Source: an uncultured Gammaproteobacteria bacterium (GTDB lineage: Bacteria > Patescibacteriota > Patescibacteriia > SG8-24). Taken from it: a stretch of DNA of 64,000 nucleotides. The stretch is from assembly GCA_964626205.1 (NCBI GenBank), contig CAZVED010000001.1, positions 64,961-128,960 on the forward strand. Reading direction: 5' to 3'. Below are positions 11,968 to 35,066 of this stretch, in pieces. The position numbers and the translations under genes were made by a program. Within the stretch, counting starts at the first letter, position 1. Each line of letters begins with the position of its first letter. The notes beneath the pieces are model-generated. The model did no database searches. It saw only the letters and a program-made list of their open reading frames with translations, and was not told the origin of the DNA.

Positions 11968-12043
11968 TGGTGCGCCGGCCGGGGATCGAACCCGGGACCA
12001 TCAGCTTAAAAGGCTGTTGCTCTACCGGCTGAGCTACCGGCGC
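11968..12043 (-). tRNA. tRNA-Lys (anticodon UUU)
   Basis: Manual cloverleaf on the reverse complement: acceptor GCGCCGG/CCGGCGC, D-arm GCUC-AGCCGGUA-GAGC, anticodon loop CUUUUAA, T-arm CCGGG-UUCGAUC-CCCGG, encoded CCA. Confidence 0.9.
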
Positions 12044-23399: not shown

Positions 23400-23640
23400 T
23401 TTTTTGCTCGCAATATCCTATTTTAGGCGGCCCGTCCGACAGCCCGTCCTGACGCACGATTGCCCGGGCGGGTCTAAAGAAATACCCGCCCTTTGCTCGG
23501 TGATCTTCGTGCGTCAGGCCGTCCTGCCGGACGGGCCGCCAGAGCACCCGCGTGGAATGTGTCATTGCGAGCGGGCTGTACTCAGCCCCGAAGGCCGGGC
23601 TATCATCCTGATTCAATGTAGCCCGGCATCCCGCCCTTAG
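23400..23640. repeat. compound palindromic intergenic element(s), TGTCATTGCGAG family
   Basis: Nested inverted repeats: ggcggcccgtccg...cggacgggccgcc (13 bp), cctgacgcacga...tcgtgcgtcagg (12 bp), inner gggcgggt...acccgccc. Contains tgtgtcattgcgag and gtactcagccccgaag, which recur in the element at 30356-30461. Confidence 0.5.
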
Positions 23641-25516: not shown

Positions 25517-25551
25517 GAAAACCTCCACAAAGGACGAAAGTGTCCGACCGG

Positions 25552-25625
25552 AACGTAGCATGGTTCTGCACTTTTGTCAATGCGTCGAGGACGCCACTCC
25601 CGCTTTCCCGGACGCTTGCTATACT
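25552..25625. promoter_or_regulatory. divergent promoter region: minus TTGACA-N17-TACGTT; plus extended -10 TGCTATACT for holB
   Basis: Hexamers at 25575-25580 and 25552-25557 on the minus strand; plus-strand TGCTATACT at 25617-25625, 10 nt before the holB ATG. Confidence 0.45.
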
Positions 25626-25635
25626 TCGCTCACCT

Positions 25636-26628
25636 ATGAAGATCGACGCCACACAATGCATCGTTACAGAGCACCCAATCATCGGCCATGGTGCCGCGGT
25701 CGGTCTGCTGTCGCGTGCTTTTGAGAGCGGCCGATTGGCGCATGGCTACCTTTTCGTCGGGCCGGCGCATGTCGGGAAAGGCGTCGTCGCCCGTGCGCTT
25801 GCGGAGGCGCTCCTCGAGACGCATCAGCTTTCCGCGCACCCGGATTTTTTCCACGTGGAACGCGGCGTGGACGAGAAGACTGGCGCTGTGGCAAGCGGTA
25901 TCGGCATCGAGCAGATTCGTGACGTGCGCAGCAGGCTTTCGCTCGGCGCGATGATGCGTGGCTGGAAAGTTGTACTGATTGAGGATGCGCATCTGTTGAG
26001 CGAAGATGCGGCTTCCGCGCTGCTGAAGCATTTGGAAGAACCGCACCCGAAGACCGTCCTTATCCTGCTCGCGGACGATGCGGAGAATGTCTTGCCGACC
26101 ATTCGATCGCGTTGCCAGATGCTGAGGTTCCCGCGTGTCGCGATCGAGGACGTCCGTGATGGGCTGGTGGCGCGAGGTGTCGCGCAGGGCGATGCCGACC
26201 TGTATGCGCGATTGTCTGCAGGGAGACCCGGTCTGGCGTTGCGGTTCGCGGAGCGACCGGAAGAGCTCGACGCCGTGCGGACCATGCGTGACGCCATTAT
26301 CGACTTGCCCGTATTGTCGGTCGCGGAACGATGGAAGGCACTTGGTGCGTTTTTCCCGGCAAAGGCGACATTCATCGAACTCGGCATCGTCGCTGACGCG
26401 TTTCTTGACCTCGCAGCCGAGTTGTTGCGGGATGTCTTGTTGCTCCAACATGACGCCGATGCCGCGCTGACGCACGCCGACGAGCGCGCACGACTCGTGC
26501 AATGGGCTGCCACTATGCGTCAAGGTGGCGCGGAGGCGGCGCTTCATGAGCTTGAGGATGCTCGTGAGCGTGTCGCACGGAACGTCAATCCGCGCTCCGC
26601 GCTGGAGCATTTTGTCCTCGCGCTTTGA
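25636..26628 (+). CDS. holB: DNA polymerase III delta-prime subunit HolB
   Basis: AAA+ clamp-loader core GYLFVGPAHVGKG, LKHLEEP, sensor PTIRSRCQ. 330 aa. Confidence 0.8.
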   Translation: MKIDATQCIVTEHPIIGHGAAVGLLSRAFESGRLAHGYLFVGPAHVGKGVVARALAEALLETHQLSAHPDFFHVERGVDEKTGAVASGIGIEQIRDVRSRLSLGAMMRGWKVVLIEDAHLLSEDAASALLKHLEEPHPKTVLILLADDAENVLPTIRSRCQMLRFPRVAIEDVRDGLVARGVAQGDADLYARLSAGRPGLALRFAERPEELDAVRTMRDAIIDLPVLSVAERWKALGAFFPAKATFIELGIVADAFLDLAAELLRDVLLLQHDADAALTHADERARLVQWAATMRQGGAEAALHELEDARERVARNVNPRSALEHFVLAL

Positions 26629-26675
26629 GGCGGCGGCGTGCTATGCTTGTCCGTGAAGCCTTACCATCATCACGT

Positions 26676-27734
26676 ATGTCATCACGCAGCATGTTTTCCT
26701 TGCTCCTCGCCGCCATCGTCTTCGTTGGCGCGGGATGCATCACCATCGAGACCGGAGAGGGCGGTGCCGGAAACGGTGGTATCTTCAAGACCGTGGATAA
26801 GGGCGATGCTTGGACGCAGCGGGTCGCGATTCCGACGACGGACGGCTCGGCGCGCGGTATCGGCGCGTATTCCGTCGTGACCATCGCGCAGGACCCGCAA
26901 GATCCGAACGCTATCTATGTCGGCACATCCGAGAACGGTATGTGGTTTTCCTATGACGGTGGAATTGCCTGGTACCAACCGGCGCAACTTCGTCGCGGCC
27001 GCATCAACGCCATCGCCGTAGATCCGAAGAACAAGTGCGTCGTGTACGTCACATCCGAGAACCGCATCCTCAAGTCCACCGACTGTTCCCGAACGTACGA
27101 AGCGACGTATCTCGACACCCGCACGGCTCGTGTCATGACGGCAATCGTGGTCGATGCGTTCAATCCAAACATTGTCTGGATCGGAAACGATGGCGGCGAC
27201 GTGCTCAAGTCCGAAGACAGTGGCGTGTCATGGAAGCCGGTCACCTCCTTCCGGAGCGGGGTGAAGCGCATGGTTGCTTCCGCGGACGATAGCCGTCGTG
27301 TCTATGCGGGTACGGAGAAGAACGGTATTTGGCGCACGGACGATGCTGGCGCGAACTGGCTCGATCTACGCGAGAACTACAAGGAGATTCGTGACACCGC
27401 AGACCTGTACGACATGGCGCTCGGAGTGAGCGATCCGCAGGTAGTCGTCGCGGCGGTCAAGCAAGGGCTCATCGTGTCGAGGGATCGCGGCACGACGTGG
27501 ACTGCGATGGAGTTGCTCACGCCGGCATCGAGCGCGGTCATCCATGCTGTGGCCGTGGATCCGAAGGATGCGAACAGCATCTACTACGGCACGTCAACGA
27601 CGTTCTATCGCAGCCCGAACGGAGGCGTAAACTGGGTGCCAAAGAAACTCCCGACGACTCGTGCCGCGACAGCGCTCCTCGTTGACAGGTCGAATCCGAG
27701 CGTGTTGTATATGGGCGTCACGCAATTCAAGTAA
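26676..27734 (+). CDS. BNR/Asp-box repeat (Ycf48/sialidase-like beta-propeller) lipoprotein
   Basis: Signal peptide with lipobox FVGAGC. Repeated S-x-D-x-G-x-(T/S)-W motifs (SYDGGIAW, SEDSGVSW, SRDRGTTW, SPNGGVNW). Confidence 0.6.
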   Translation: MSSRSMFSLLLAAIVFVGAGCITIETGEGGAGNGGIFKTVDKGDAWTQRVAIPTTDGSARGIGAYSVVTIAQDPQDPNAIYVGTSENGMWFSYDGGIAWYQPAQLRRGRINAIAVDPKNKCVVYVTSENRILKSTDCSRTYEATYLDTRTARVMTAIVVDAFNPNIVWIGNDGGDVLKSEDSGVSWKPVTSFRSGVKRMVASADDSRRVYAGTEKNGIWRTDDAGANWLDLRENYKEIRDTADLYDMALGVSDPQVVVAAVKQGLIVSRDRGTTWTAMELLTPASSAVIHAVAVDPKDANSIYYGTSTTFYRSPNGGVNWVPKKLPTTRAATALLVDRSNPSVLYMGVTQFK

Positions 27735-27740
27735 TCATGT

Positions 27741-28295
27741 ATGAAACAGGAGATCGCGCAGTACAAGGACCTTTTCGAAAAACCCATCGCCTTCCTTCAT
27801 TCCGAGCTGTCCGTGCTTCGTACGGGTCGTGCCACGCCGGCGCTCGTGGAGCATATCCATGTTGAAGCGTACGGGACGCGCCAGGAACTGATGACGCTCG
27901 CGTCCATTTCCACCCCGGATTCTCGTACCATCGTTATCGAGCCGTGGGACAAATCCGTGACGAAAGACATCGAGCGCGGCATCACGGAAGCCGGAATTGG
28001 TCTGAATCCTACCGTGCAGGGAACCGTCATTCGCATCGTATTGCCTATTCTCACGGAAGAGACGCGCAAGAATCTTATCAAGGTCATGCACGAGAAGGTC
28101 GAAGAAGCCCGTGTGGGCGTCCGCGGTGCGCGCGACGAGGTGAAGGCGGTCATCGTGAAGGCGGAGAAAGACAAGGAAATTCCTGAGGACGACAAGTACA
28201 AGTTCCTCGAGGAGCTCGACAAGTTCGCCGCGATGTACAACGAGAAGATCAAAAAGATCGCGGAGGACAAGGAAACGGAGATTATGACGATGTAG
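27741..28295 (+). CDS. frr: ribosome recycling factor
   Basis: Full-length RRF (184 aa) with the characteristic ...LRTGRA.P.LV..I.V.YYG..TPL.Q.A.IS... region. Confidence 0.92.
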   Translation: MKQEIAQYKDLFEKPIAFLHSELSVLRTGRATPALVEHIHVEAYGTRQELMTLASISTPDSRTIVIEPWDKSVTKDIERGITEAGIGLNPTVQGTVIRIVLPILTEETRKNLIKVMHEKVEEARVGVRGARDEVKAVIVKAEKDKEIPEDDKYKFLEELDKFAAMYNEKIKKIAEDKETEIMTM

Positions 28296-28296
28296 T

Positions 28297-29214
28297 ATGA
28301 CGAACGACGACCACGCCCTGCGCCGTGCTCACGAGCAGGCGTCTGGGCGTGTCTGGGCGTCGTGCGTCGACATGAAAGACGTCGGCAGCTTCGAGGAGTT
28401 CATGGAAACATGGCCGATGTACTGGATGCCACGGAAGGTCGAGGTTGCGCGCATCCTTGCGATCGGGAAACAGATGCAGGCCGCCCGGGGAACGGGCGGT
28501 CCTTTGCGTATTCTCGAGGTCGGCGGAGCGAACGCGGCCCTTGCGGACCTGCTTGTCGGTCTTGCCGAGGAGAACGGTCTCGATGTCGCGTACACCATCG
28601 TTGATCCAGAGGCGGAGACCATGACAGAAGCCGCTATGGCGCATGTCGGCGACCGTCGTTTTTCATTCCATGCTGAAACCGTGGAGCACTTCGTGGCGAA
28701 GCGAGGCCGTGGCGATAGCGAGGATGTGCTTATGGAGGAGTCGCCGGCGTACGACCTCGTCATCAATGCTTGGATGCCGCCGGAGATGGATTTCACCAAG
28801 GATGTCCGTGCTGCGAACGGTGCGGCGATCGTTTATGTCATCGAGACGTGGGGTGGCACCGGAAGCAAAGAGAGCTACGACGGCGGACGGATGTATCGGA
28901 CCGTGGCAGGGTGGGTCGGTCATTCGTTGCCGGAATTGCAACGACAGGACGGTCGAGTAATCGAAGGGGAGCGCAGAGCAGAGTTTTGTAACGCGGTTCT
29001 CATACAGTATCGTCGTGATATCGATGGGGGCGGGCTTCTACCGGACCTGGAGCGCGCGGGCATCGACATGGGGGAGCCGTATCCGTGGGAGGCGGAGCTC
29101 ACGAAGCGACAAGGGGATGTTGCACCAGTGATTCCGCTTGGGGATCGGGAGTATCATGACGACCTGATGGATCTCGTGGAGAGAATGCTCGAACAGCGGA
29201 AAGAAAAGAGGTGA
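28297..29214 (+). CDS. hypothetical protein, possible Rossmann/SAM-MTase-like fold
   Basis: ATG 1 nt after the frr stop. LRILEVGGANAALADLL resembles methyltransferase motif I. Otherwise no diagnostic motifs. Confidence 0.4.
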   Translation: MTNDDHALRRAHEQASGRVWASCVDMKDVGSFEEFMETWPMYWMPRKVEVARILAIGKQMQAARGTGGPLRILEVGGANAALADLLVGLAEENGLDVAYTIVDPEAETMTEAAMAHVGDRRFSFHAETVEHFVAKRGRGDSEDVLMEESPAYDLVINAWMPPEMDFTKDVRAANGAAIVYVIETWGGTGSKESYDGGRMYRTVAGWVGHSLPELQRQDGRVIEGERRAEFCNAVLIQYRRDIDGGGLLPDLERAGIDMGEPYPWEAELTKRQGDVAPVIPLGDREYHDDLMDLVERMLEQRKEKR

Positions 29215-29221
29215 TGTAGAT

Positions 29222-29256
29222 AAAAAGAAAAGCGGCTCATGCAGAGCCGCTTTTTG
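29222..29256. terminator. bidirectional intrinsic terminator
   Basis: aaaaagaaa-agcggctc-atgca-gagccgct-ttttg. Confidence 0.8.
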
Positions 29257-29273
29257 CGAAGTCGGTTTGACCT

Positions 29274-29396
29274 CTACTCCCACGGATAGCTTTGGAGAGC
29301 TTCGGGGACATTCGGTAAGTCGCGGACGATGATTTCTTGCTGGAACATCATGCCCGCGACCATACCGAGGAGGAAGACGACGGTGACGGTGCGCAT
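29274..29396 (-). CDS. small hydrophobic peptide (40 aa), translationally coupled to the upstream peptide
   Basis: ATG overlaps the upstream stop (TGATG). Sequence MRTVTVVFLLGMVAGMMFQQEIIVRDLPNVPEALQSYPWE, with one transmembrane helix. Confidence 0.35.
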   Translation of the reverse strand: MRTVTVVFLLGMVAGMMFQQEIIVRDLPNVPEALQSYPWE

Positions 29397-29533
29397 CAGA
29401 ACAGGACTCGCATCACCACGAAGATGGTGGGGATGGAGCAACTGCCGAGCAGGAGGAAGGTCTTCCAGTCGCTGACCGGTTGATAGTCGGCGCGGGTGGT
29501 GCCTTCTTCGAACACGTTCGTGAGATCTGCCAT
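29396..29533 (-). CDS. small membrane peptide (45 aa)
   Basis: Strong AAGGAG Shine-Dalgarno 8 nt before ATG 29533. Sequence MADLTNVFEEGTTRADYQPVSDWKTFLLLGSCSIPTIFVVMRVLF. Below the ORF track's length cutoff. The track's 104-aa ORF is a frame fusion of this and the next peptide. Confidence 0.45.
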   Translation of the reverse strand: MADLTNVFEEGTTRADYQPVSDWKTFLLLGSCSIPTIFVVMRVLF

Positions 29534-29578
29534 TGAATGAGCTCCTTCTGGTGGAAAATCCACCGGGGTACAACGATG

Positions 29579-29607
29579 AATGTATCACATTTTGATGCTT
29601 TTGTCAA
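29579..29607 (-). promoter_or_regulatory. promoter TTGACA-N17-TACATT (extended TGaTACATT) for the two-peptide operon
   Basis: Consensus -35 with exact 17-nt spacer on the minus strand. Confidence 0.5.
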
Positions 29608-29702
29608 TACTGACGAGCAAGCTTATGAAAGGCGAATTTGCCTCATTTAAGGCTGGTATGGCAGGGGATACCCTGAAGTTTCGTGAGTAGTGCCAGAGAC
29701 TC

Positions 29703-29731
29703 TTGACAGATTCTCCAATTCGTGCTATAGT
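29703..29731 (+). promoter_or_regulatory. near-consensus sigma70 promoter TTGACA-N17-TGCTATAGT
   Basis: TTGACA at 29703-29708, 17-nt spacer, TATAGT at 29726-29731 with a TGC extension. Confidence 0.6.
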
Positions 29732-29737
29732 CCTTTG

Positions 29738-30178
29738 TCAGGCTCGGAACGCACCTTTGACGAAAGACTCCTCCTGGGAAACGTTATGGAGGGGGACCCC
29801 ATCGGACGCATCGCTTCGGCGAAATGTCCATGGTGATGTGGAACGAGGAAGAGCCCGGTTTCGACTGGGGTCTTCCACGAAGAAGCATCGTTGACCAGAG
29901 CAGCGCTTCGGCGCCCACCTCCGGTTTCCGTCTCCATAACGTTCCTCATGAGTTCGGGCCACGAAAGCCTGTCGGTTGATGTCTGCCATTTGGCCGCCGT
30001 CATTTGGACTTATGAGGATTATTTTTCCACCGCGCCCTGCCACCCACCCCGCTCCCTCATCCTCTCGAAGGCTCTCATGATGGCGGTGCTGACCCCACCG
30101 CGTACCGTGAGATCCTCATCGCTTAGCTGCCGGCCAGGTAGCATCCCCTCCGTTGTCTAGACGGGGGGTGATTTTTTA
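29738..30178 (+). ncRNA. candidate structured non-coding RNA (~440 nt), identity unassigned
   Basis: Promoter-to-terminator unit without a credible ORF. UUCG tetraloop hairpins (catcgc-UUCG-gcgaaa, gcgc-UUCG-gcgc). Terminator stem ccccuccgu/acgggggg at 30145-30168 followed by U6. Confidence 0.45.
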
Positions 30179-30203
30179 TATGGTGTTTTTTGCTCTCGTC
30201 AGC

Positions 30204-30274
30204 GGTCTGTCAGAGAGGGCTTTCGGCAAGGCGGCTCCAACTTTAGCCTCGCCGAAAGCCCTCTCCGACAGACC
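30204..30274. repeat. long palindromic element (24-bp arms, 23/24 matched)
   Basis: ggtctgtcagagagggctttcggc ... gccgaaagccctctccgacagacc with a 23-nt loop. Confidence 0.6.
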
Positions 30275-30355
30275 ACACGAGGCCGCGTCAACTTGATGTC
30301 TCATCCCGTTCCGGTCAGATACAGAGCGAGGATTTTTGCGGACTGCCGTCCCTAC

Positions 30356-30461
30356 TGTGTCATTGCGAGGGTCGACGTACTCGTCGGCCCGAAGCAATCC
30401 CGTTTCGAGATTGCTCGGGATTGCTTCGGGGTCTGAGTACAGACCCACTCGCAATGACACA
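30356..30461. repeat. compound palindromic element with TGTGTCATTGCGAG core
   Basis: Outer 14-bp perfect IR tgtgtcattgcgag/ctcgcaatgacaca. Inner IR gcccgaagcaatcccg/cgggattgcttcgggg (16 bp) and gtactc/gagtac. Shares core and sub-arms with 23560-23600. Confidence 0.6.
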
Positions 30462-30472
30462 ATAAAATAGGC

Positions 30473-30501
30473 TTGAAGGTATCTTTTAAGCGTGTTACTG
30501 T
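30473..30501 (+). promoter_or_regulatory. putative promoter TTGAAG-N17-TACTGT for glyQS, giving a near-leaderless mRNA
   Basis: -10 box ends 10 nt before ATG 30511. No Shine-Dalgarno. Confidence 0.35.
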
Positions 30502-30510
30502 TCGTGAACT

Positions 30511-31893
30511 ATGCCAGCCTCCTCAATGGATCAGATTATCACTTTGTCGAAGCGCCGCGGCTTCGTTTTCCCTGGCTCCGACATCTACGGTGGCCTTGCG
30601 AACTCGTGGGACTACGGCCCACTCGGTGTCGAGCTCAAGAACAATCTCCGCGACTGGTGGTGGAAGCGGTTCGTGCACGGACGCCGCGACATGGTCGGTA
30701 TCGATGCCGCGGTCATCATGAACCCCAAGGTTTGGGAAGCGTCCGGTCACGTCGCTGGCTTTAACGATCCGCTCGTCGAGGACTTGAAGACCCACAAACG
30801 CTACCGCGCCGACCATCTTCTGGAGCAGGCGCTCAACCGATCCGTGGACGGCTTGTCGACCGCGGACCTCGCGAAGCTTATCGTCGACAACGACGTGAAG
30901 TCGCCGGACGGCAATCCGCTTTCCGAGCCGAAGGTGTTCAACCTGCTCATGCAGACCGAGCTCGGCAAGATCGAGGGCGAAAAGACGGCGGTGTACCTCC
31001 GCGGCGAAATCGCGCAGGCCATGTTCGTGAACTTCAAGAACATCACGGACACGCAGCGCGTGAAGCTGCCGTTCGGCATCGCGTCGGTCGGCAAGGCCTT
31101 CCGCAACGAGATCACGCCCGGTAACTTCATCTTCCGCACACTCGAGTTCGATTTGATGGAGTTCGAGTATTTCATCCGCGAGAAGGACTGGCAGGAACAG
31201 TTCGAGTTCTGGCTCGGCGAGATGCGTTCCTGGCTCAAAGAGATGGGTTTCAAAGACGAGAGCACGCGCGTGCGCGAGCATGAACAGGACGAGCTTTCCC
31301 ACTACAGCAGGCGCACGGTCGACATCGAGTACAAGACGCCGTTCGGTTGGAAGGAGATGTTCGGACTGGCCTACCGTACGGATTTCGACCTCAAGGCGCA
31401 CATGGAGCATTCCGGACAGGACATGCGGTATTTCGACCAGGAAGCCAACGAGCGCTTCATCCCGCATGTCATCGAGCCGACGTTCGGCTTGTCCCGCCTC
31501 GTGCTCATGACTATGATCGAGGCATACGATGAGGAAGAGGTAAGGGATACCGAAGGAAACGTCGAGACGCGCACGGTGATGCGCTTCCATCCGCGCATCG
31601 CGCCGTACAAGGCCGCGGTGCTGCCGCTTTTCAAGAAGGAAGGCCAGCCGGAGCGCGCAAAGGAAATCTGGGAGAAGCTCTCGCGCCGTTGGAACGTGGA
31701 ATACGACGAGACGCAGTCCATTGGCAAGCGCTACCGCCGTCAGGACGAGATCGGCACGCCGTTCTGCATCACGGTCGATTTCGACACGGCGAATGACGAC
31801 GCGGTCACTGTGCGCCATCGCGACGCCATGACGCAGGAACGCGTGAAGATCACGGAGCTTGAGGCGTACCTCGCTGAACGCATCGAGGCATGA
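30511..31893 (+). CDS. glyQS: glycyl-tRNA synthetase, dimeric (alpha2) class II type
   Basis: N-terminus QIITLSKRRGFVFPGSDIYGGLANSWDYGPLGVELKNN. 460 aa with class II motifs. Eukaryotic/archaeal-type GlyRS as found in many bacteria. Confidence 0.9.
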   Translation: MPASSMDQIITLSKRRGFVFPGSDIYGGLANSWDYGPLGVELKNNLRDWWWKRFVHGRRDMVGIDAAVIMNPKVWEASGHVAGFNDPLVEDLKTHKRYRADHLLEQALNRSVDGLSTADLAKLIVDNDVKSPDGNPLSEPKVFNLLMQTELGKIEGEKTAVYLRGEIAQAMFVNFKNITDTQRVKLPFGIASVGKAFRNEITPGNFIFRTLEFDLMEFEYFIREKDWQEQFEFWLGEMRSWLKEMGFKDESTRVREHEQDELSHYSRRTVDIEYKTPFGWKEMFGLAYRTDFDLKAHMEHSGQDMRYFDQEANERFIPHVIEPTFGLSRLVLMTMIEAYDEEEVRDTEGNVETRTVMRFHPRIAPYKAAVLPLFKKEGQPERAKEIWEKLSRRWNVEYDETQSIGKRYRRQDEIGTPFCITVDFDTANDDAVTVRHRDAMTQERVKITELEAYLAERIEA

Positions 31894-33182
31894 ACGCGCC
31901 GAAGCAACTCACGCTCGCGAACGGTACGAGGGTCGTTCTCGTCCGCAACGACGAGGCCACGGCAGTGACTCTGCTCGTGATGTTCGCCGTCGGTTCCCGG
32001 TATGAGACGCGTGCCGTGAACGGCGCCGCGCATTTCATCGAACACCTGATGTTCAAAGGCACCAAGAAGCGCCCCAACACCATGACGATCTCGCGTGAGC
32101 TCGACGGTGTCGGCGCGGACTACAATGCTTTTACGAGCAAGGACTATACCGGCTACTACATCCGTCTCCAGGCCGAAAAATTACCGCTCGCCGCGGACAT
32201 GCTCTCCGACATGCTGTACGGCTCGTTGTTCCGCGAGAAGGACGTCGATGCCGAACGTCAGGTCATCAACGAGGAGATCCGCATGTACGAGGACAATCCA
32301 TCCTCCGCAACAGAGGAACGCATGGAAGAGGACCTGTTCCGCACGTCGCCGCTCGGGTGGCGCATCGCCGGCTCCGAGAAGTCGCTCGCCGGCATCACGC
32401 GCAAAGAGCTCATGGCGTTCCGTGACCGGTACTATGTTCCGTCGCGCACGGTCATCTCCGTCGCCGGAAGGTTCGACGAGGAACACGTGCTGCGTGTGCT
32501 CAATGCCACGTTTGGCGCGCGGAAGAACGGCGCGCATGGCCGCGAAGCCGTGCAGTTCAGCGCGGCGAAGGAGAAATGGGTCGCGCCGCGCATCAGCGTG
32601 GTGCATCGCTCAATCGAGCAGGCGAGCCTCGCCATCGGCTTCCCCGCATACGGCTACACCGACCCGCGCCTCCCGGCGCTCAAGGTACTCTCGACGATTC
32701 TCGGCGGGACGATGTCGTCGCGGCTCTTCATGTCCGTCCGTGAGAAACACGGGTTGTGTTATTCCATCAGCTCTGGCGTGAGCCCGTTCCACGAGACGGG
32801 GTTCTTTTCTGTGCAGTCCGGACTCGCCAAGGATCGCGTGCACAAGGCGCTGACGCTCATCATGAAGGAACTCAAGCGCATCAGGGACGCAAAGGTCACG
32901 GTCGAGGAATTGGCGCGTGCACAGGAGAATCTCAAAGGACGCCTCATGCTCTCCATGGAAAGCTCCAACGCCATGGCCGACTGGTACGCTCGGCAGGAGC
33001 TGCTCACCGGACGCGTGGAATCCCCGGAGGCGCGCATTGCCAGGTATGCCAAGGTCACGCGTGAGGACATTCAACGCGTAGCCAAGGACGTCCTTCGTCC
33101 GTCGAGAATGACGATGACTGTTCTTGGGGCGTATGCTGAGACGGATCACGAAACGTTCAAACGTCATATTACCGCGCTCTAA
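31890..33182 (+). CDS. M16 family zinc peptidase (pitrilysin/insulinase-like)
   Basis: Inverted zincin motif HFIEHLMFKGT (HxxEH) plus downstream Glu region. ATGA overlap with glyQS. 430 aa. Confidence 0.8.
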   Translation: MNAPKQLTLANGTRVVLVRNDEATAVTLLVMFAVGSRYETRAVNGAAHFIEHLMFKGTKKRPNTMTISRELDGVGADYNAFTSKDYTGYYIRLQAEKLPLAADMLSDMLYGSLFREKDVDAERQVINEEIRMYEDNPSSATEERMEEDLFRTSPLGWRIAGSEKSLAGITRKELMAFRDRYYVPSRTVISVAGRFDEEHVLRVLNATFGARKNGAHGREAVQFSAAKEKWVAPRISVVHRSIEQASLAIGFPAYGYTDPRLPALKVLSTILGGTMSSRLFMSVREKHGLCYSISSGVSPFHETGFFSVQSGLAKDRVHKALTLIMKELKRIRDAKVTVEELARAQENLKGRLMLSMESSNAMADWYARQELLTGRVESPEARIARYAKVTREDIQRVAKDVLRPSRMTMTVLGAYAETDHETFKRHITAL

Positions 33183-33185
33183 CCT

Positions 33186-33962
33186 ATGCAGTACCTTATC
33201 GCCAACTGGAAGATGCAGTTCAACGAAGCCGAGTCCGAGGCTGCCGCACGAGAGACCGTACGCCTGTGGTCTGCGCAAGCCGATCGTTCTCGTTCGGTTG
33301 CCGTGGTCCTCTGCCCAGGTGCCGAAGCTTTAGATGAGGTTGCTGCCGTGACACGCGGAACGAACGTCGCGTTGGGAGGACAGGATGCGTTCTGGGAAGA
33401 AAAGGGAGCCTACACCGGAGAGATTTCCCCGGTTTCCCTGAAGCAGGTCGGGTGCGAGTACTGCATCGTCGGGCATTCCGAGCGACGGGAGCATCTTGGT
33501 GAGACCGACGCGATGGTCGCCAAGAAGGTTGCGGCGCTTTTACGGCACGGCATCGTGCCGGTCGTTTGCGTCGGTGAAACGCGTGAAGACCGCGATGCCG
33601 GACGGCACACGTCGACGGTCATTGCGCAGGTCCGCGCGGCGCTTGCAGGGAACGTTCCCGTGGGCGCACAACGGGTCATTGTCGCTTACGAGCCACGGTG
33701 GGCAATCGGCACCGGCAAGGCCTGTTCGCCGGATGTTGCTGCAGAGATGACGCACCTCATCCGCGAAACATTGAGCGAGCTCTATTCCGCGGACGTCGTC
33801 CAGAACCAGTGTGCTGTCCTGTATGGCGGCTCCACGGATGCCGACAATATCGGCGCCTATGCCGACGTGCATGCCATTGATGGCGCGCTCGTGGGCGGCG
33901 CGTCCTTGAAGCCTGCGACGTTCGTGCGGATGGCGGAAGTGCTCGCAGACAAGGCGGTCTGA
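33186..33962 (+). CDS. tpiA: triosephosphate isomerase
   Basis: N-terminus IANWKMQ, catalytic region IVGHSERR, YGGS near the C-terminus. 258 aa. Confidence 0.9.
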   Translation: MQYLIANWKMQFNEAESEAAARETVRLWSAQADRSRSVAVVLCPGAEALDEVAAVTRGTNVALGGQDAFWEEKGAYTGEISPVSLKQVGCEYCIVGHSERREHLGETDAMVAKKVAALLRHGIVPVVCVGETREDRDAGRHTSTVIAQVRAALAGNVPVGAQRVIVAYEPRWAIGTGKACSPDVAAEMTHLIRETLSELYSADVVQNQCAVLYGGSTDADNIGAYADVHAIDGALVGGASLKPATFVRMAEVLADKAV

Positions 33963-34776: not shown

Positions 34777-34852
34777 GCCACCTTAGCTCAGCTGGTAGAG
34801 CAACACTTTTGTAAAGTGAAGGTCCCGGGTTCGATCCCCGGAGGTGGCTCCA
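34777..34852 (+). tRNA. tRNA-Thr (anticodon UGU)
   Basis: Cloverleaf: acceptor GCCACCU/AGGUGGC, anticodon loop UUUGUAA, T-arm CCGGG-UUCGAUC-CCCGG, CCA encoded. Confidence 0.88.
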
Positions 34853-34902
34853 CTCACGTCCGCGATAAGGTCGACGACAATCGAAAACGGCATTTTTCAC
34901 GT

Positions 34903-34987
34903 GGGCCGGTACCCAAGCGGTCAAAGGGGGCGGACTGTAAATCCGCTGGCATCGCCTTCGAAGGTTCGAATCCTTCCCGTCCCACCA
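34903..34987 (+). tRNA. tRNA-Tyr (anticodon GUA), class II with long variable arm
   Basis: Anticodon stem-loop GCGGA-CUGUAAA-UCCGC, long variable arm, T-arm GAAGG-UUCGAAU-CCUUC, CCA encoded. One C:U mismatch in the acceptor stem. Confidence 0.85.
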
Positions 34988-34990
34988 CAT

Positions 34991-35066
34991 GCCGACGTAG
35001 CTCAGTTGGTAGAGCATCTCCATGGTAAGGAGAAGGTCACCGGTTCGATTCCGGTCGTCGGCTCCA
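34991..35066 (+). tRNA. tRNA-Thr (anticodon GGU)
   Basis: Acceptor GCCGACG/CGUCGGC, anticodon stem-loop UCUCC-AUGGUAA-GGAGA, T-arm ACCGG-UUCGAUU-CCGGU, CCA encoded. Confidence 0.88.

What the first reader, a model, noticed from the sequence alone, without database searches (positions are those of the whole stretch)
29274..29607. Unannotated two-peptide operon: 45-aa and 40-aa hydrophobic peptides with TGATG coupling, own consensus promoter and terminator
- **Two peptides hidden by the track.** Both fall below the 60-aa ORF cutoff, and the track fused them into a 104-aa frame-mixed ORF.
  - Peptide 1 (29533-29396): MADLTNVFEEGTTRADYQPVSDWKTFLLLGSCSIPTIFVVMRVLF, with a strong AAGGAG Shine-Dalgarno at -8.
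  - Peptide 2 (29396-29274): MRTVTVVFLLGMVAGMMFQQEIIVRDLPNVPEALQSYPWE. Its ATG overlaps the upstream stop (TGATG).
- **Own expression signals.** The pair is driven by TTGACA-N17-TGaTACATT (29579-29607) and ends at the bidirectional terminator 29222-29256.
- **Possible roles.** Paired single-helix peptides of this kind can be membrane toxins, two-peptide bacteriocin-like or holin-like systems, or small regulatory subunits of transporters/ATPases (KdpF/AcrZ-type). Their function here is unknown.
Basis: seen in the sequence. Interest (0 to 1): 0.55.

Follow-up and report, generated by a model that had tools for sequence, protein, structure and literature searches.

The report
Conserved orphan small membrane-protein operon
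The two tiny overlapping genes are real and kept by selection: they encode single-helix membrane proteins found so far in only three related uncultured ultra-small (Patescibacteria/CPR) bacteria, they are the remnant of a three-gene operon, and their function is still unknown.

Summary
Both ORFs, the TGATG overlap, the AAGGAG ribosome-binding site, the TTGACA-17-TGnTACATT promoter and the terminator sit at the stated coordinates.

- **Real genes.** Two syntenic relatives, L081 and L085, keep both reading frames, the overlap, the promoter and a 5'UTR hairpin. pN/pS is 0.16-0.32 for pep2 (0.07-0.12 in its tail) and 0.21-0.31 for the N-terminal half of pep1. Off-frame controls give about 1 or more. 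Codon usage matches the window's genes.
- **Remnant of a larger operon.** The relatives carry a third coupled gene, pep3 (67 aa, two membrane helices). In the window it is deleted down to its last codons.
- **Orphan family.** Three occurrences among about 15 billion proteins, and no Pfam, NCBIfam, PADLOC, PHROG or PDB match.
- **Clade-specific insert.** The operon lies in a 2.2-kb insert between frr and glyS, next to a SAM-methyltransferase-fold gene.
- **Neighbouring RNA.** It is transcribed divergently from a structured RNA with covariation support and no Rfam match, which looks like a glyS leader.

Best reading: membrane-anchored small proteins that act together, probably on a larger membrane partner. 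Bacteriocin, holin and type I toxin memberships fail the tests I could run. Interest is modest.

The parts
29579..29607 (-). Promoter of the peptide operon. The -35 is TTGACA (29607-29602), the spacer is 17 nt, and the extended -10 is TGaTACATT (29587-29579).
   Evidence: scores it 10 of 12 with TG. The same site is found in L081 (10 of 12) and L085 (11 of 12). The -35 and most of the spacer are invariant in the alignment.
29550..29564 (-). 5'UTR hairpin GGUGG-AUUUU-CCACC, just upstream of the exposed Shine-Dalgarno.
   Evidence: It is predicted in all three loci. L081 has AGUGG/CCACU, a change on both sides that keeps the pairing. The z-scores are unremarkable, so this is weak evidence.
29542..29547 (-). 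Shine-Dalgarno AAGGAG, 8 nt before the pep1 ATG.
   Evidence: AAGGAGCTCATT is invariant in the three loci. Several neighbouring genes (frr, glyS, tpiA) lack any Shine-Dalgarno.
29396..29533 (-). pep1, 45 aa. It has a conserved acidic N-terminal segment (DLTNxFEEGTTxADYxPxSDWK) followed by a poorly conserved C-terminal hydrophobic helix that contains a conserved proline.
   Evidence: Searches give the sequence. Homologues are in L081 (3729-3592) and L085 (669-812). pN/pS is 0.21-0.31 for codons 1-26 and 1.2-2.8 for codons 27-45. Hydropathy is and the codon score of 0.49.
29274..29396 (-). pep2, 40 aa. It consists of MRT, a hydrophobic helix with invariant G11xxxG15, and a strongly conserved tail QQEIIVRDLPNVPxxxQxYPWE. 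Its start overlaps the pep1 stop (TGATG) and it has no Shine-Dalgarno of its own.
   Evidence: Sequence and alignments are. pN/pS is 0.16-0.32 overall and 0.07-0.12 in the tail, with binomial P of 4e-5 to 1e-4. AlphaFold2 gives a helix over residues 2-26 and an extended tail. The codon score is 0.53.
29235..29272 (-). Remnant of the 3' end of the lost third gene, pep3. It runs into the terminator stem.
   Evidence: The window's CGACTTCGCAAAAAGCGGCTCTG aligns with the last codons of L081 pep3, CGACACGAAAAAGACGGCTCTG. No pep3 is found elsewhere in the window.
29218..29254 (-). Intrinsic terminator: an 11-bp stem, a 5-nt loop and a T-run. An A-run on the other side allows it to serve the convergent gene that ends at 29214.
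   Evidence: It is homologous to the terminator after pep3 in L081.
28297..29214 (+). Convergent neighbour P0003, 305 aa, a divergent class I SAM-methyltransferase-fold protein. Its start lies one base after the frr stop. It is part of the same clade-specific insert but is not shown to work with the peptides.
   Evidence: AlphaFold2 mean pLDDT is 77. Foldseek top hits are SAM-methyltransferase and spermidine-synthase folds at E about 1e-6. Other family members have no peptide operon nearby.
29703..30175 (+). Divergently transcribed structured RNA: promoter 29703-29731, four-way-junction core 29765-29956, conserved 3' hairpin and terminator 30146-30175. It is probably a glyS leader. It is a neighbour, and a link to the peptides is not shown.

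Best explanation
**What it is.** This is a genuine small-protein operon confined to one lineage of a Patescibacteria (CPR) bacterium.

**Expression (inferred from sequence signals).**
- A strong sigma-70-type promoter with an extended -10 makes a short mRNA.
- Ribosomes load at the exposed AAGGAG site and translate pep1.
- pep2 has no Shine-Dalgarno. It is translated mainly by re-initiation at the TGATG overlap, so the two proteins are made together.
- In relatives a third coupled gene, pep3 (two membrane helices), follows. The window lineage has deleted it.

**The proteins (inferred from sequence and selection pattern).**
- pep1 is a tail-anchored protein. Its selected part is a 25-residue acidic N-terminal segment.
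- pep2 is anchored by an N-terminal helix carrying a GxxxG motif. Its selected part is a 22-residue tail rich in proline and aromatic residues.

**Most likely function (inferred).** The two membrane-tethered short segments act together as a small hetero-oligomer that binds or modulates a larger membrane protein or envelope machine. This is how most characterised bacterial proteins under 50 aa work.

**What is shown and what is not.**
- Shown: the signals, the conservation, the purifying selection, the hydrophobic helices and the loss of pep3.
- Inferred: membrane insertion, assembly, and the existence and identity of a partner.
For: **The genes are real.**
- Both frames, the TGATG overlap, the promoter, the Shine-Dalgarno and the 5'UTR are conserved in L081 and L085. 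The sequence between the two divergent promoters diverges much more than the promoters and the 5'UTR.
- The synonymous excess appears only in the stated frames. For pep2, pN/pS is 0.16-0.32 with P down to 3.6e-5, and 0.07-0.12 in the tail. For the pep1 N-terminal half it is 0.21-0.31. Off-frame controls give 1.0-2.4.
- Differences between the loci fall mostly at third codon positions.
- Codon-usage score and GC3 resemble those of bona fide genes.
- Gene callers called all of them independently in three assemblies.

**They are membrane proteins.**
- Hydrophobic stretches of about 15-17 residues score 2.0-2.6 on the Kyte-Doolittle scale.
- pep2 is modelled as a long helix with an extended tail.
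- G11xxxG15 is invariant in pep2.

**They are made together.** TGATG (pep1/pep2) and ATGA (pep2/pep3) overlaps are conserved, and pep2 has no Shine-Dalgarno of its own.

**Modulator or complex role.** From established knowledge of bacterial small membrane proteins such as AcrZ, KdpF, CydX, MgtS and MgrB: most act by binding larger membrane proteins.
Against: - No partner gene is encoded next to the operon. The neighbours are frr, a methyltransferase-like gene, glyS, an M16 peptidase and tpiA.
- There is no homology to any known small-subunit family.
- Only three closely related loci exist. Co-occurrence is therefore not independent evidence, and the selection tests rest on few substitutions.
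- pep3 is lost in the window, so the complex, if any, tolerates losing a member. Alternatively the operon may be decaying in this lineage.
- The hydrophobic half of pep1 evolves at pN/pS of 1 or more. That argues against tight helix packing for that helix.
- Topology and expression are untested.
Confidence: 0.5

Rival explanations
1. Membrane-damaging toxin peptides. Either a type I toxin-antitoxin-like module or an addiction module, in which pep1 and/or pep2 depolarise the membrane and are held in check by an RNA or by the partner peptide.
For: - The peptides are short and hydrophobic, under 50 aa.
- The locus sits in a clade-specific insert.
- A structured RNA is transcribed divergently about 165 nt away.
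- Distribution is extremely narrow.
Against: - No promoter-like site would give an antisense RNA overlapping the operon. The divergent RNA does not overlap it.
- The Shine-Dalgarno is strong and predicted unpaired rather than sequestered.
- The promoter is near-consensus.
- The operon holds three unrelated coupled peptides rather than one.
- The strongest selection is on the non-hydrophobic tails, not on the helices.
- There is no PADLOC hit.
Confidence: 0.12
2. Secreted antimicrobial or RiPP-like peptides. pep1 would be a precursor with a conserved leader (residues 1-24) and a fast-evolving hydrophobic core. pep2 and pep3 would be partner or immunity peptides, as in a two-peptide or leaderless bacteriocin system.
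For: - pep1 has a conserved N-terminal half and a C-terminal half at pN/pS 1.2-2.8.
- pep2 carries a GxxxG motif.
- The small two-helix pep3 resembles immunity proteins in size.
- A methyltransferase-fold gene is adjacent.
Against: - Neither peptide has a double-glycine leader.
- The peptides are net anionic, -2 each in the window.
- The putative core has no charge at all in L081, so it would be insoluble.
- The sampled flanking genes (holB to tpiA, 25540-33962) include no ABC transporter or C39 peptidase.
- The M16 peptidase downstream of glyS is also syntenic in relatives that lack the peptides.
- The methyltransferase family occurs elsewhere without peptides.
- The excess of non-synonymous changes in the helix is not significant. 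It fits a helix selected only for hydrophobicity.
Confidence: 0.05
3. Non-functional or decaying ORFs. Their conservation would be a by-product of selection on the DNA or RNA, for example a structured transcript, or of recent common ancestry.
For: - Only three related loci exist.
- pep3 has been deleted in the window.
- The hydrophobic half of pep1 evolves neutrally.
Against: - The synonymous excess is frame-specific, with off-frame controls near or above 1.
- Differences fall mostly at third codon positions.
- Codon usage is in frame.
- Start, stop and overlap positions are maintained in three loci whose synonymous divergence is about 0.6-1.1.
- By contrast, the neighbouring RNA core shows no frame-specific signal under the same test.
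Confidence: 0.05
4. pep2 is a regulatory nascent peptide, a ribosome-arrest or termination-stalling leader. Its conserved Pro/Trp-rich C-terminus would control translation of the overlapping downstream gene pep3.
For: - The most constrained part of the operon is the last 22 codons of pep2, ending YPWE just before the pep3 start.
- Known arrest peptides such as SecM, MifM and TnaC depend on Pro and Trp residues near the stall site (established knowledge).
Against: - pep2 stays intact and constrained in the window, where pep3 is gone.
- Only about 22 residues separate the helix from the stop codon. The helix would still be inside the ribosome tunnel at termination, so a force-sensing mechanism of the MifM or SecM type is geometrically implausible.
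- Residues after YPWE vary: none in the window, KQG in L085, KGNTP in L081.
Confidence: 0.03

Closest known systems
Bacterial small membrane-protein modulators and subunits (AcrZ, KdpF, CydX, MgtS, MgrB type)
   Same: - Under 50 aa, with a single hydrophobic helix plus a short functional tail.
- A real Shine-Dalgarno and their own expression signals.
- Conserved only over short evolutionary distances.
   Different: - No sequence homology.
- Not encoded beside any membrane complex.
- Here two or three unrelated small proteins are translationally coupled to one another rather than to a large partner.
Class IIb two-peptide bacteriocins (lactococcin G, plantaricin EF/JK)
   Same: Two adjacent small genes, made in equal amounts, with a GxxxG motif in a helix (pep2).
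   Different: - No double-glycine leader.
- Anionic rather than cationic.
- No transporter, C39 peptidase or dedicated immunity gene nearby.
- Membrane-spanning hydrophobic stretches rather than amphipathic helices.
Type I toxin-antitoxin toxins (Hok, TisB, Ldr, Fst)
   Same: Short hydrophobic peptides encoded in a non-core insert.
   Different: - No overlapping antisense RNA promoter.
- Strong and accessible translation signals.
- Several coupled peptides.
- Selection concentrated on the hydrophilic tails.
OLE RNA with its membrane-protein partner OapA
   Same: A large structured non-coding RNA gene lies next to genes for small membrane proteins in one lineage.
   Different: - No Rfam OLE match.
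- The RNA here is about 440 nt, sits directly upstream of glyS and ends in a terminator.
- The peptides are much smaller than OapA and are not basic.
- The link is adjacency only, in three related genomes.
T-box leader of glyS/glyQS (for the neighbouring RNA, not the peptides)
   Same: A structured leader ending in an intrinsic terminator immediately upstream of the glycyl-tRNA synthetase gene. In L081 about 40 nt separate it from the ATG.
   Different: - No match to Rfam T-box or any other family even at E <= 10.
- The core is a four-way junction closed by a 23-bp helix.
- It is duplicated in tandem in L081.

Membership tests
Class IIb two-peptide bacteriocin | N-terminal double-glycine leader on both peptides | tested here: not met
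   No GG, GA or GS cleavage motif at about residues 15-30 in pep1 or pep2 in any of the three loci.
Class IIb two-peptide bacteriocin | Cationic, amphipathic mature peptides with GxxxG motifs | tested here: not met
   Net charge is -2 for both window peptides. Both have membrane-spanning hydrophobic stretches. Only pep2 has an invariant GxxxG.
Class IIb two-peptide bacteriocin | Linked immunity gene and ABC transporter with a C39 peptidase domain | tested here: not met
   Of the ORFs from 25540 to 33962, the seven scanned against Pfam are holB, a BNR protein, the methyltransferase-fold P0003, an M16 peptidase, tpiA and the two peptides. frr and glyS were identified by homology. None is a transporter or a C39 peptidase. 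More distant genes in the window were not examined.
Type I toxin-antitoxin system | Small hydrophobic toxin peptide under 60 aa | tested here: met
   pep1 is 45 aa and pep2 is 40 aa, each with a hydrophobic helix.
Type I toxin-antitoxin system | Antisense or overlapping antitoxin RNA | tested here: not met
   Consensus scans find no plus-strand promoter inside or overlapping the operon in the three loci. The divergent RNA starts about 165 nt upstream of the operon's transcription start and runs away from it. Weak non-consensus promoters cannot be excluded.
Type I toxin-antitoxin system | Toxicity on over-expression | not testable with these tools
   Needs an induction experiment.
Holin | Phage or prophage context with an adjacent endolysin | tested here: not met
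   The neighbours are housekeeping genes. There is no significant PHROG hit and no match in the phage, plasmid or viral-contig collections.
Known small subunits KdpF / AcrZ / CydX | Sequence membership in the Pfam or NCBIfam family | tested here: not met
   No family at E <= 0.1 for the window's pep1 and pep2, or at E <= 10 for the L081 and L085 homologues. The only exception is a sub-threshold DUF3679 hit for P0010.
Known small subunits KdpF / AcrZ / CydX | Physical association with a large membrane partner, often encoded in the same operon | not testable with these tools
   No candidate partner is encoded adjacent to the operon. Binding needs co-purification.
T-box riboswitch (for the neighbouring RNA) | Match to the T-box covariance model: Stem I specifier loop and T-box antiterminator sequence | tested here: not met
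   No RF00230 hit at the gathering threshold or at E <= 10 over 29150-30600.

The most novel reading that the evidence does not exclude
The peptide operon and the divergently transcribed 440-nt structured RNA could be one functional module that this Patescibacteria clade acquired between frr and glyS. It would be a membrane-anchored ribonucleoprotein or an RNA-linked membrane sensor, analogous in logic to OLE RNA with OapA. It would tie envelope state to expression of the only glycyl-tRNA synthetase gene through a new class of leader RNA. The evidence does not exclude this, but it rests only on conserved adjacency in three related genomes.
Probability: 0.07. Interest if true: 0.75.

Novelty: new member of a known kind. 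Interest (0 to 1): 0.3.

Why it matters
- **A clean example for small-protein discovery.** Small proteins are systematically missed, and almost nothing is known about them in the uncultured ultra-small Patescibacteria. These genomes are so reduced that retained genes are likely to matter. Here two sub-50-aa genes are validated by comparative evidence alone.
- **Which residues carry the function.** Selection points to the two short tails, not the membrane helices. That gives a concrete handle for tagging and pull-down experiments.
- **Recent gene loss.** The deletion of pep3 documents recent loss inside a micro-operon.
- **Limits.** The family's extreme rarity (three loci in public data) and the absence of any functional clue limit its immediate impact.
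- **The neighbouring RNA.** The unclassified structured RNA upstream of glyS may be the more consequential object in this region.

Tried and rejected
**Searches that found nothing further**
- Homologue searches with pep1 and a pep2 profile, plus an exhaustive hmmsearch of 1.84 billion representative proteins. They returned only the three loci. Two repetitive proteins, P0012 and P0013, are spurious hits.
- Metagenome scans with pep2 motifs and with the RNA closing helix: empty.
- Viral-contig scans and phage and plasmid BLAST: empty.
- Pfam, NCBIfam, PADLOC, PHROG and PDB sequence searches of pep1, pep2 and, except for PDB, pep3. They gave only compositional noise such as PsbF, light-harvesting gamma and DUF3679.
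- Exact look-ups of window proteins on contigs. The window's contig is not in that index.

**Readings considered and rejected**
- *A single frameshifted two-helix gene.* The TGATG frame change is conserved in all three loci.
- *The 104-aa ORF as the real gene.* Its N-terminal extension is closed by a stop in L085 and scores poorly on codon usage.
- *A small protein encoded in the RNA core.* The frame that reads NEEExGxDW...TSGFRLHNV is open in all copies. It is rejected because no frame shows a synonymous excess, while seven base pairs show compensatory changes.
- *YPWE shared by pep2 and the methyltransferase family.* 12% of shuffled pep2 sequences share a 4-mer with P0003, so this is treated as chance.
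- *Linkage of the peptides to the methyltransferase family.* Other family members have no such neighbours.
Full report
**1. The observation.**

- pep1 (MADLTNVFEEGTTRADYQPVSDWKTFLLLGSCSIPTIFVVMRVLF) runs from ATG 29533 to TGA 29396.
- pep2 (MRTVTVVFLLGMVAGMMFQQEIIVRDLPNVPEALQSYPWE) runs from ATG 29396 to TAG 29274.
- The two share the sequence TGATG.
- AAGGAG lies 8 nt before the pep1 start.
- The consensus scan finds TTGACA-17-TACATT with an upstream TG at 29607-29579, matching 10 of 12 positions.
- It also finds a terminator with an 11-bp stem at 29254-29228.
- The 104-aa ORF is the pep2 frame staying open upstream.

**2. Are they genes?**

*Prior calls.* Both peptides already exist, unnamed, in the public protein collection, from an NCBI contig of 143 kb. 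Each is a singleton at 90% identity. They match nothing in Pfam.

*Relatives.* The decisive evidence came through the neighbouring 305-aa protein, P0003.
- Its 66%-identical homologue P0005 lies on a 4.8-kb JGI contig, L081, with the same gene order: holB, a BNR protein, frr, the P0003 homologue, then small genes on the opposite strand.
- L081 encodes a pep1 homologue, MIDLTNAFEEGTTAADYMPFSDWKAFGIIGIWTIPTILLVLAVVL.
- It also encodes a pep2 homologue, MRTMLAIFLIGVVVGMQLQQEIIVRDLPNVPKGPQHYPWEKGNTP, again joined by TGATG.
- A pep2 profile search found a third locus, L085, a 1-kb Logan contig with the same arrangement.

*Selection.*
- pN/pS is 0.16-0.32 for pep2, with binomial P down to 3.6e-5, and 0.07-0.12 for its last 22 codons.
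- It is 0.21-0.31 for the first 26 codons of pep1.
- The same DNA read in the other two frames gives 1.0-2.4.
- Differences between the loci fall mostly at third codon positions.

*Codon usage.*
- Scores are 0.49 for pep1 and 0.53 for pep2.
- Forty-codon windows of the window's long genes score 0.38 +/- 0.26 in frame and -0.42 +/- 0.44 off frame.
- GC3 is 0.82 and 0.78, against 0.75 for the genes.

*Alternatives excluded.*
- The long-ORF reading fails because L085 has a stop in the upstream extension.
- A single frameshifted gene is excluded because the frame change is conserved.

I regard the reality of both genes as about 90% secure.

**3. Expression signals.**
- In all three loci the scan recovers the same promoter: TTGACA, a 17-nt spacer and an extended -10, matching 10-11 of 12 positions.
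- The -35, most of the spacer, the 5'UTR and AAGGAGCTCATT are nearly invariant. The sequence between the two divergent promoters is much less conserved.
- A short 5'UTR hairpin is predicted in all three loci with the Shine-Dalgarno left unpaired. L081 carries a change on both sides of the stem that keeps the pairing. Its folding energy is not exceptional, so this is weak evidence.
- pep2 has no Shine-Dalgarno, so re-initiation at TGATG is the likely route. This is an inference.
- Several neighbouring genes (frr, glyS, tpiA) have no Shine-Dalgarno at all, which makes the pep1 site stand out.

**4. The operon was larger.**
- In L081 a third gene overlaps the pep2 stop (ATGA). It encodes a 67-aa protein with two hydrophobic helices, MKRRFWKWTMTIVAGVWFGGLGLLALDLVPALWVAFITLPGMFSGSIVPALWAGDDLDNNDTKKTAL.
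- L085 has the start of a homologue before the contig ends.
- The window has no pep3 anywhere.
- The sequence between the pep2 stop and the terminator aligns with the last codons of L081 pep3 and with its terminator.
- Because the window is closest to L085 (pep2 85% identical), the simplest history is a deletion of about 175 nt in the window lineage.

**5. What the proteins look like.**
- *pep1.* A conserved acidic N-terminal segment of about 25 residues is followed by a hydrophobic C-terminal helix. The helix stays hydrophobic and keeps one proline, but otherwise evolves at pN/pS of 1 or more. This suggests a generic anchor.
- *pep2.* MRT is followed by a helix with invariant G11xxxG15 and then a highly constrained 22-residue tail. 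AlphaFold2 models a helix over residues 2-26 and an extended tail, with mean pLDDT 76.
- *Where selection acts.* It acts on the short non-hydrophobic segments, with the helices serving as tethers.

**6. Distribution and context.**
- *Rarity.* The family has three members among about 15 billion proteins, all singletons. Nothing turned up in the metagenome, viral, phage or plasmid collections.
- *Taxon.* The GlyRS of the window is at most 66% identical to any species representative. Most of its closest relatives are Patescibacteria/CPR assemblies.
- *The insert.*
  - In several of those relatives (for example L001, L036, L051, L052, L073) frr ends immediately before glyS.
  - The window and L081 instead carry an insert between them, about 2.2 kb long in the window.
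  - The insert holds P0003, the peptide operon and a divergent RNA gene.
- *P0003.* It has a class I SAM-methyltransferase fold. Its more distant relatives sit in other contexts without small peptide genes. A functional link to the peptides is therefore not supported. The shared YPWE motif is within chance, P about 0.12.

**7. Mechanism.**

The best-supported reading is a co-produced pair, ancestrally a trio, of membrane-tethered small proteins acting as a hetero-oligomer, probably on a larger membrane partner. I put this at about 0.5.

The rivals:
- *Type I-like toxin, 0.12.* Weakened by the absence of an overlapping antisense promoter, the exposed strong Shine-Dalgarno, the presence of several coupled peptides, and selection that falls on the tails.
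- *Secreted bacteriocin or RiPP, 0.05.* There is no leader motif, the peptides are anionic, and no transporter is nearby.
- *By-product ORFs, 0.05.* Contradicted by the frame-specific selection.
- *pep2 as an arrest peptide controlling pep3, 0.03.* pep2 stays constrained in the window, where pep3 is gone, and the geometry is unfavourable.

**8. The neighbouring RNA (outside the finding).**

*Transcript signals.* A second near-consensus promoter (29703-29731, 11 of 12 with TG) fires away from the peptide operon. A strong terminator lies at 30146-30175.

*Evidence that it is a structured RNA.*
- The 29765-29956 core folds as a four-way junction with 60 base pairs. Across four copies 98% of cells are paired.
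- Seven pairs show compensatory changes, against 0-2 in slid controls.
- No reading frame shows a coding signature.
- The minimum free energy z-score is -3.1.

*Distribution.*
- No Rfam family matches, even at E <= 10.
- A covariance model finds no other copy in the window or in the other 82 loci searched.
- The core is tandemly duplicated in L081.

*Relation to glyS.*
- In L081 the terminator ends about 40 nt before the glyS ATG, with no other promoter-like site in between.
- The RNA is therefore most simply a glyS leader or attenuator of an undescribed type.
- In the window and L085, long palindromic elements have been inserted between the terminator and glyS.

**9. Verdict.**

It is a new, very narrowly distributed family within a known kind of gene, the small membrane protein. 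There is no functional assignment, and the interest is modest.

Noticed in passing
window 29703-30175 (+); L081 3901-4565 (+); L085 498-60 (-): An unclassified structured RNA of about 440 nt.
- It has its own near-consensus promoter and terminator.
- The core (29765-29956) is a four-way junction with 60 base pairs and 7 covarying pairs. It has no coding signal and no Rfam match.
- It is tandemly duplicated in L081.
- In L081 its terminator ends about 40 nt before the glyS start, so it is likely a new kind of glyS leader.
   Followed up: partly
window 30185-30285 and 30353-30461; partial copy 23558-23593: Two long, near-perfect hairpin elements lie between the RNA terminator and glyS. They score only as microRNA-like noise in Rfam. 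The first is also present in L085, and part of the second is repeated 7 kb away. They look like small palindromic repeat (MITE/REP-like) insertions.
   Followed up: partly
window 28297-29214 (+): P0003 is a 305-aa protein with no Pfam family, and its start lies one base after the frr stop.
- The AlphaFold2 model has mean pLDDT 77.
- Foldseek places it among class I SAM-methyltransferase and spermidine-synthase folds.
- The family's conserved motifs are DxGGxNG, VVDP, INxWMP and YPWE.
- Its known relatives, all from uncultured-organism assemblies, are about 460-520 aa long, with an N-terminal extension and a large internal insertion.
   Followed up: partly
window 28296-30510: The whole 2.2-kb block (methyltransferase-like gene, peptide operon, RNA, hairpins) is an insert specific to this small clade. 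In several of the closest Patescibacteria relatives, frr is followed directly by glyS.
   Followed up: yes
window 29277-29288 (pep2 YPWE) and P0003 residues 262-265: The motif YPWE is invariant both at the C-terminus of pep2 and in the P0003 family. However, 12% of shuffled pep2 sequences share some 4-mer with P0003, so it may be chance.
   Followed up: yes
window 27715-27740, 30485-30510 and 33160-33185 (start regions of frr, glyS and tpiA): Several housekeeping genes near the finding have no recognisable Shine-Dalgarno, whereas pep1 has a perfect AAGGAG. The first 24 nt of glyS (ATGCCAGCCTCCTCAATGGATCAG) are identical in the window and L081, and contain CCTCCTC.
   Followed up: no
L086 1905-5254: A distant P0003-family member, P0009, also lies near a class II aminoacyl-tRNA synthetase gene (tRNA-synt_2b plus HGTP_anticodon). 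The two are on opposite strands. This may be coincidence.
   Followed up: no
window 34777-35066 (+) and 11968-12043 (-): An ordinary tRNA cluster (Thr-TGT, Tyr-GTA, Thr-GGT) and a single tRNA-Lys-TTT.
   Followed up: no
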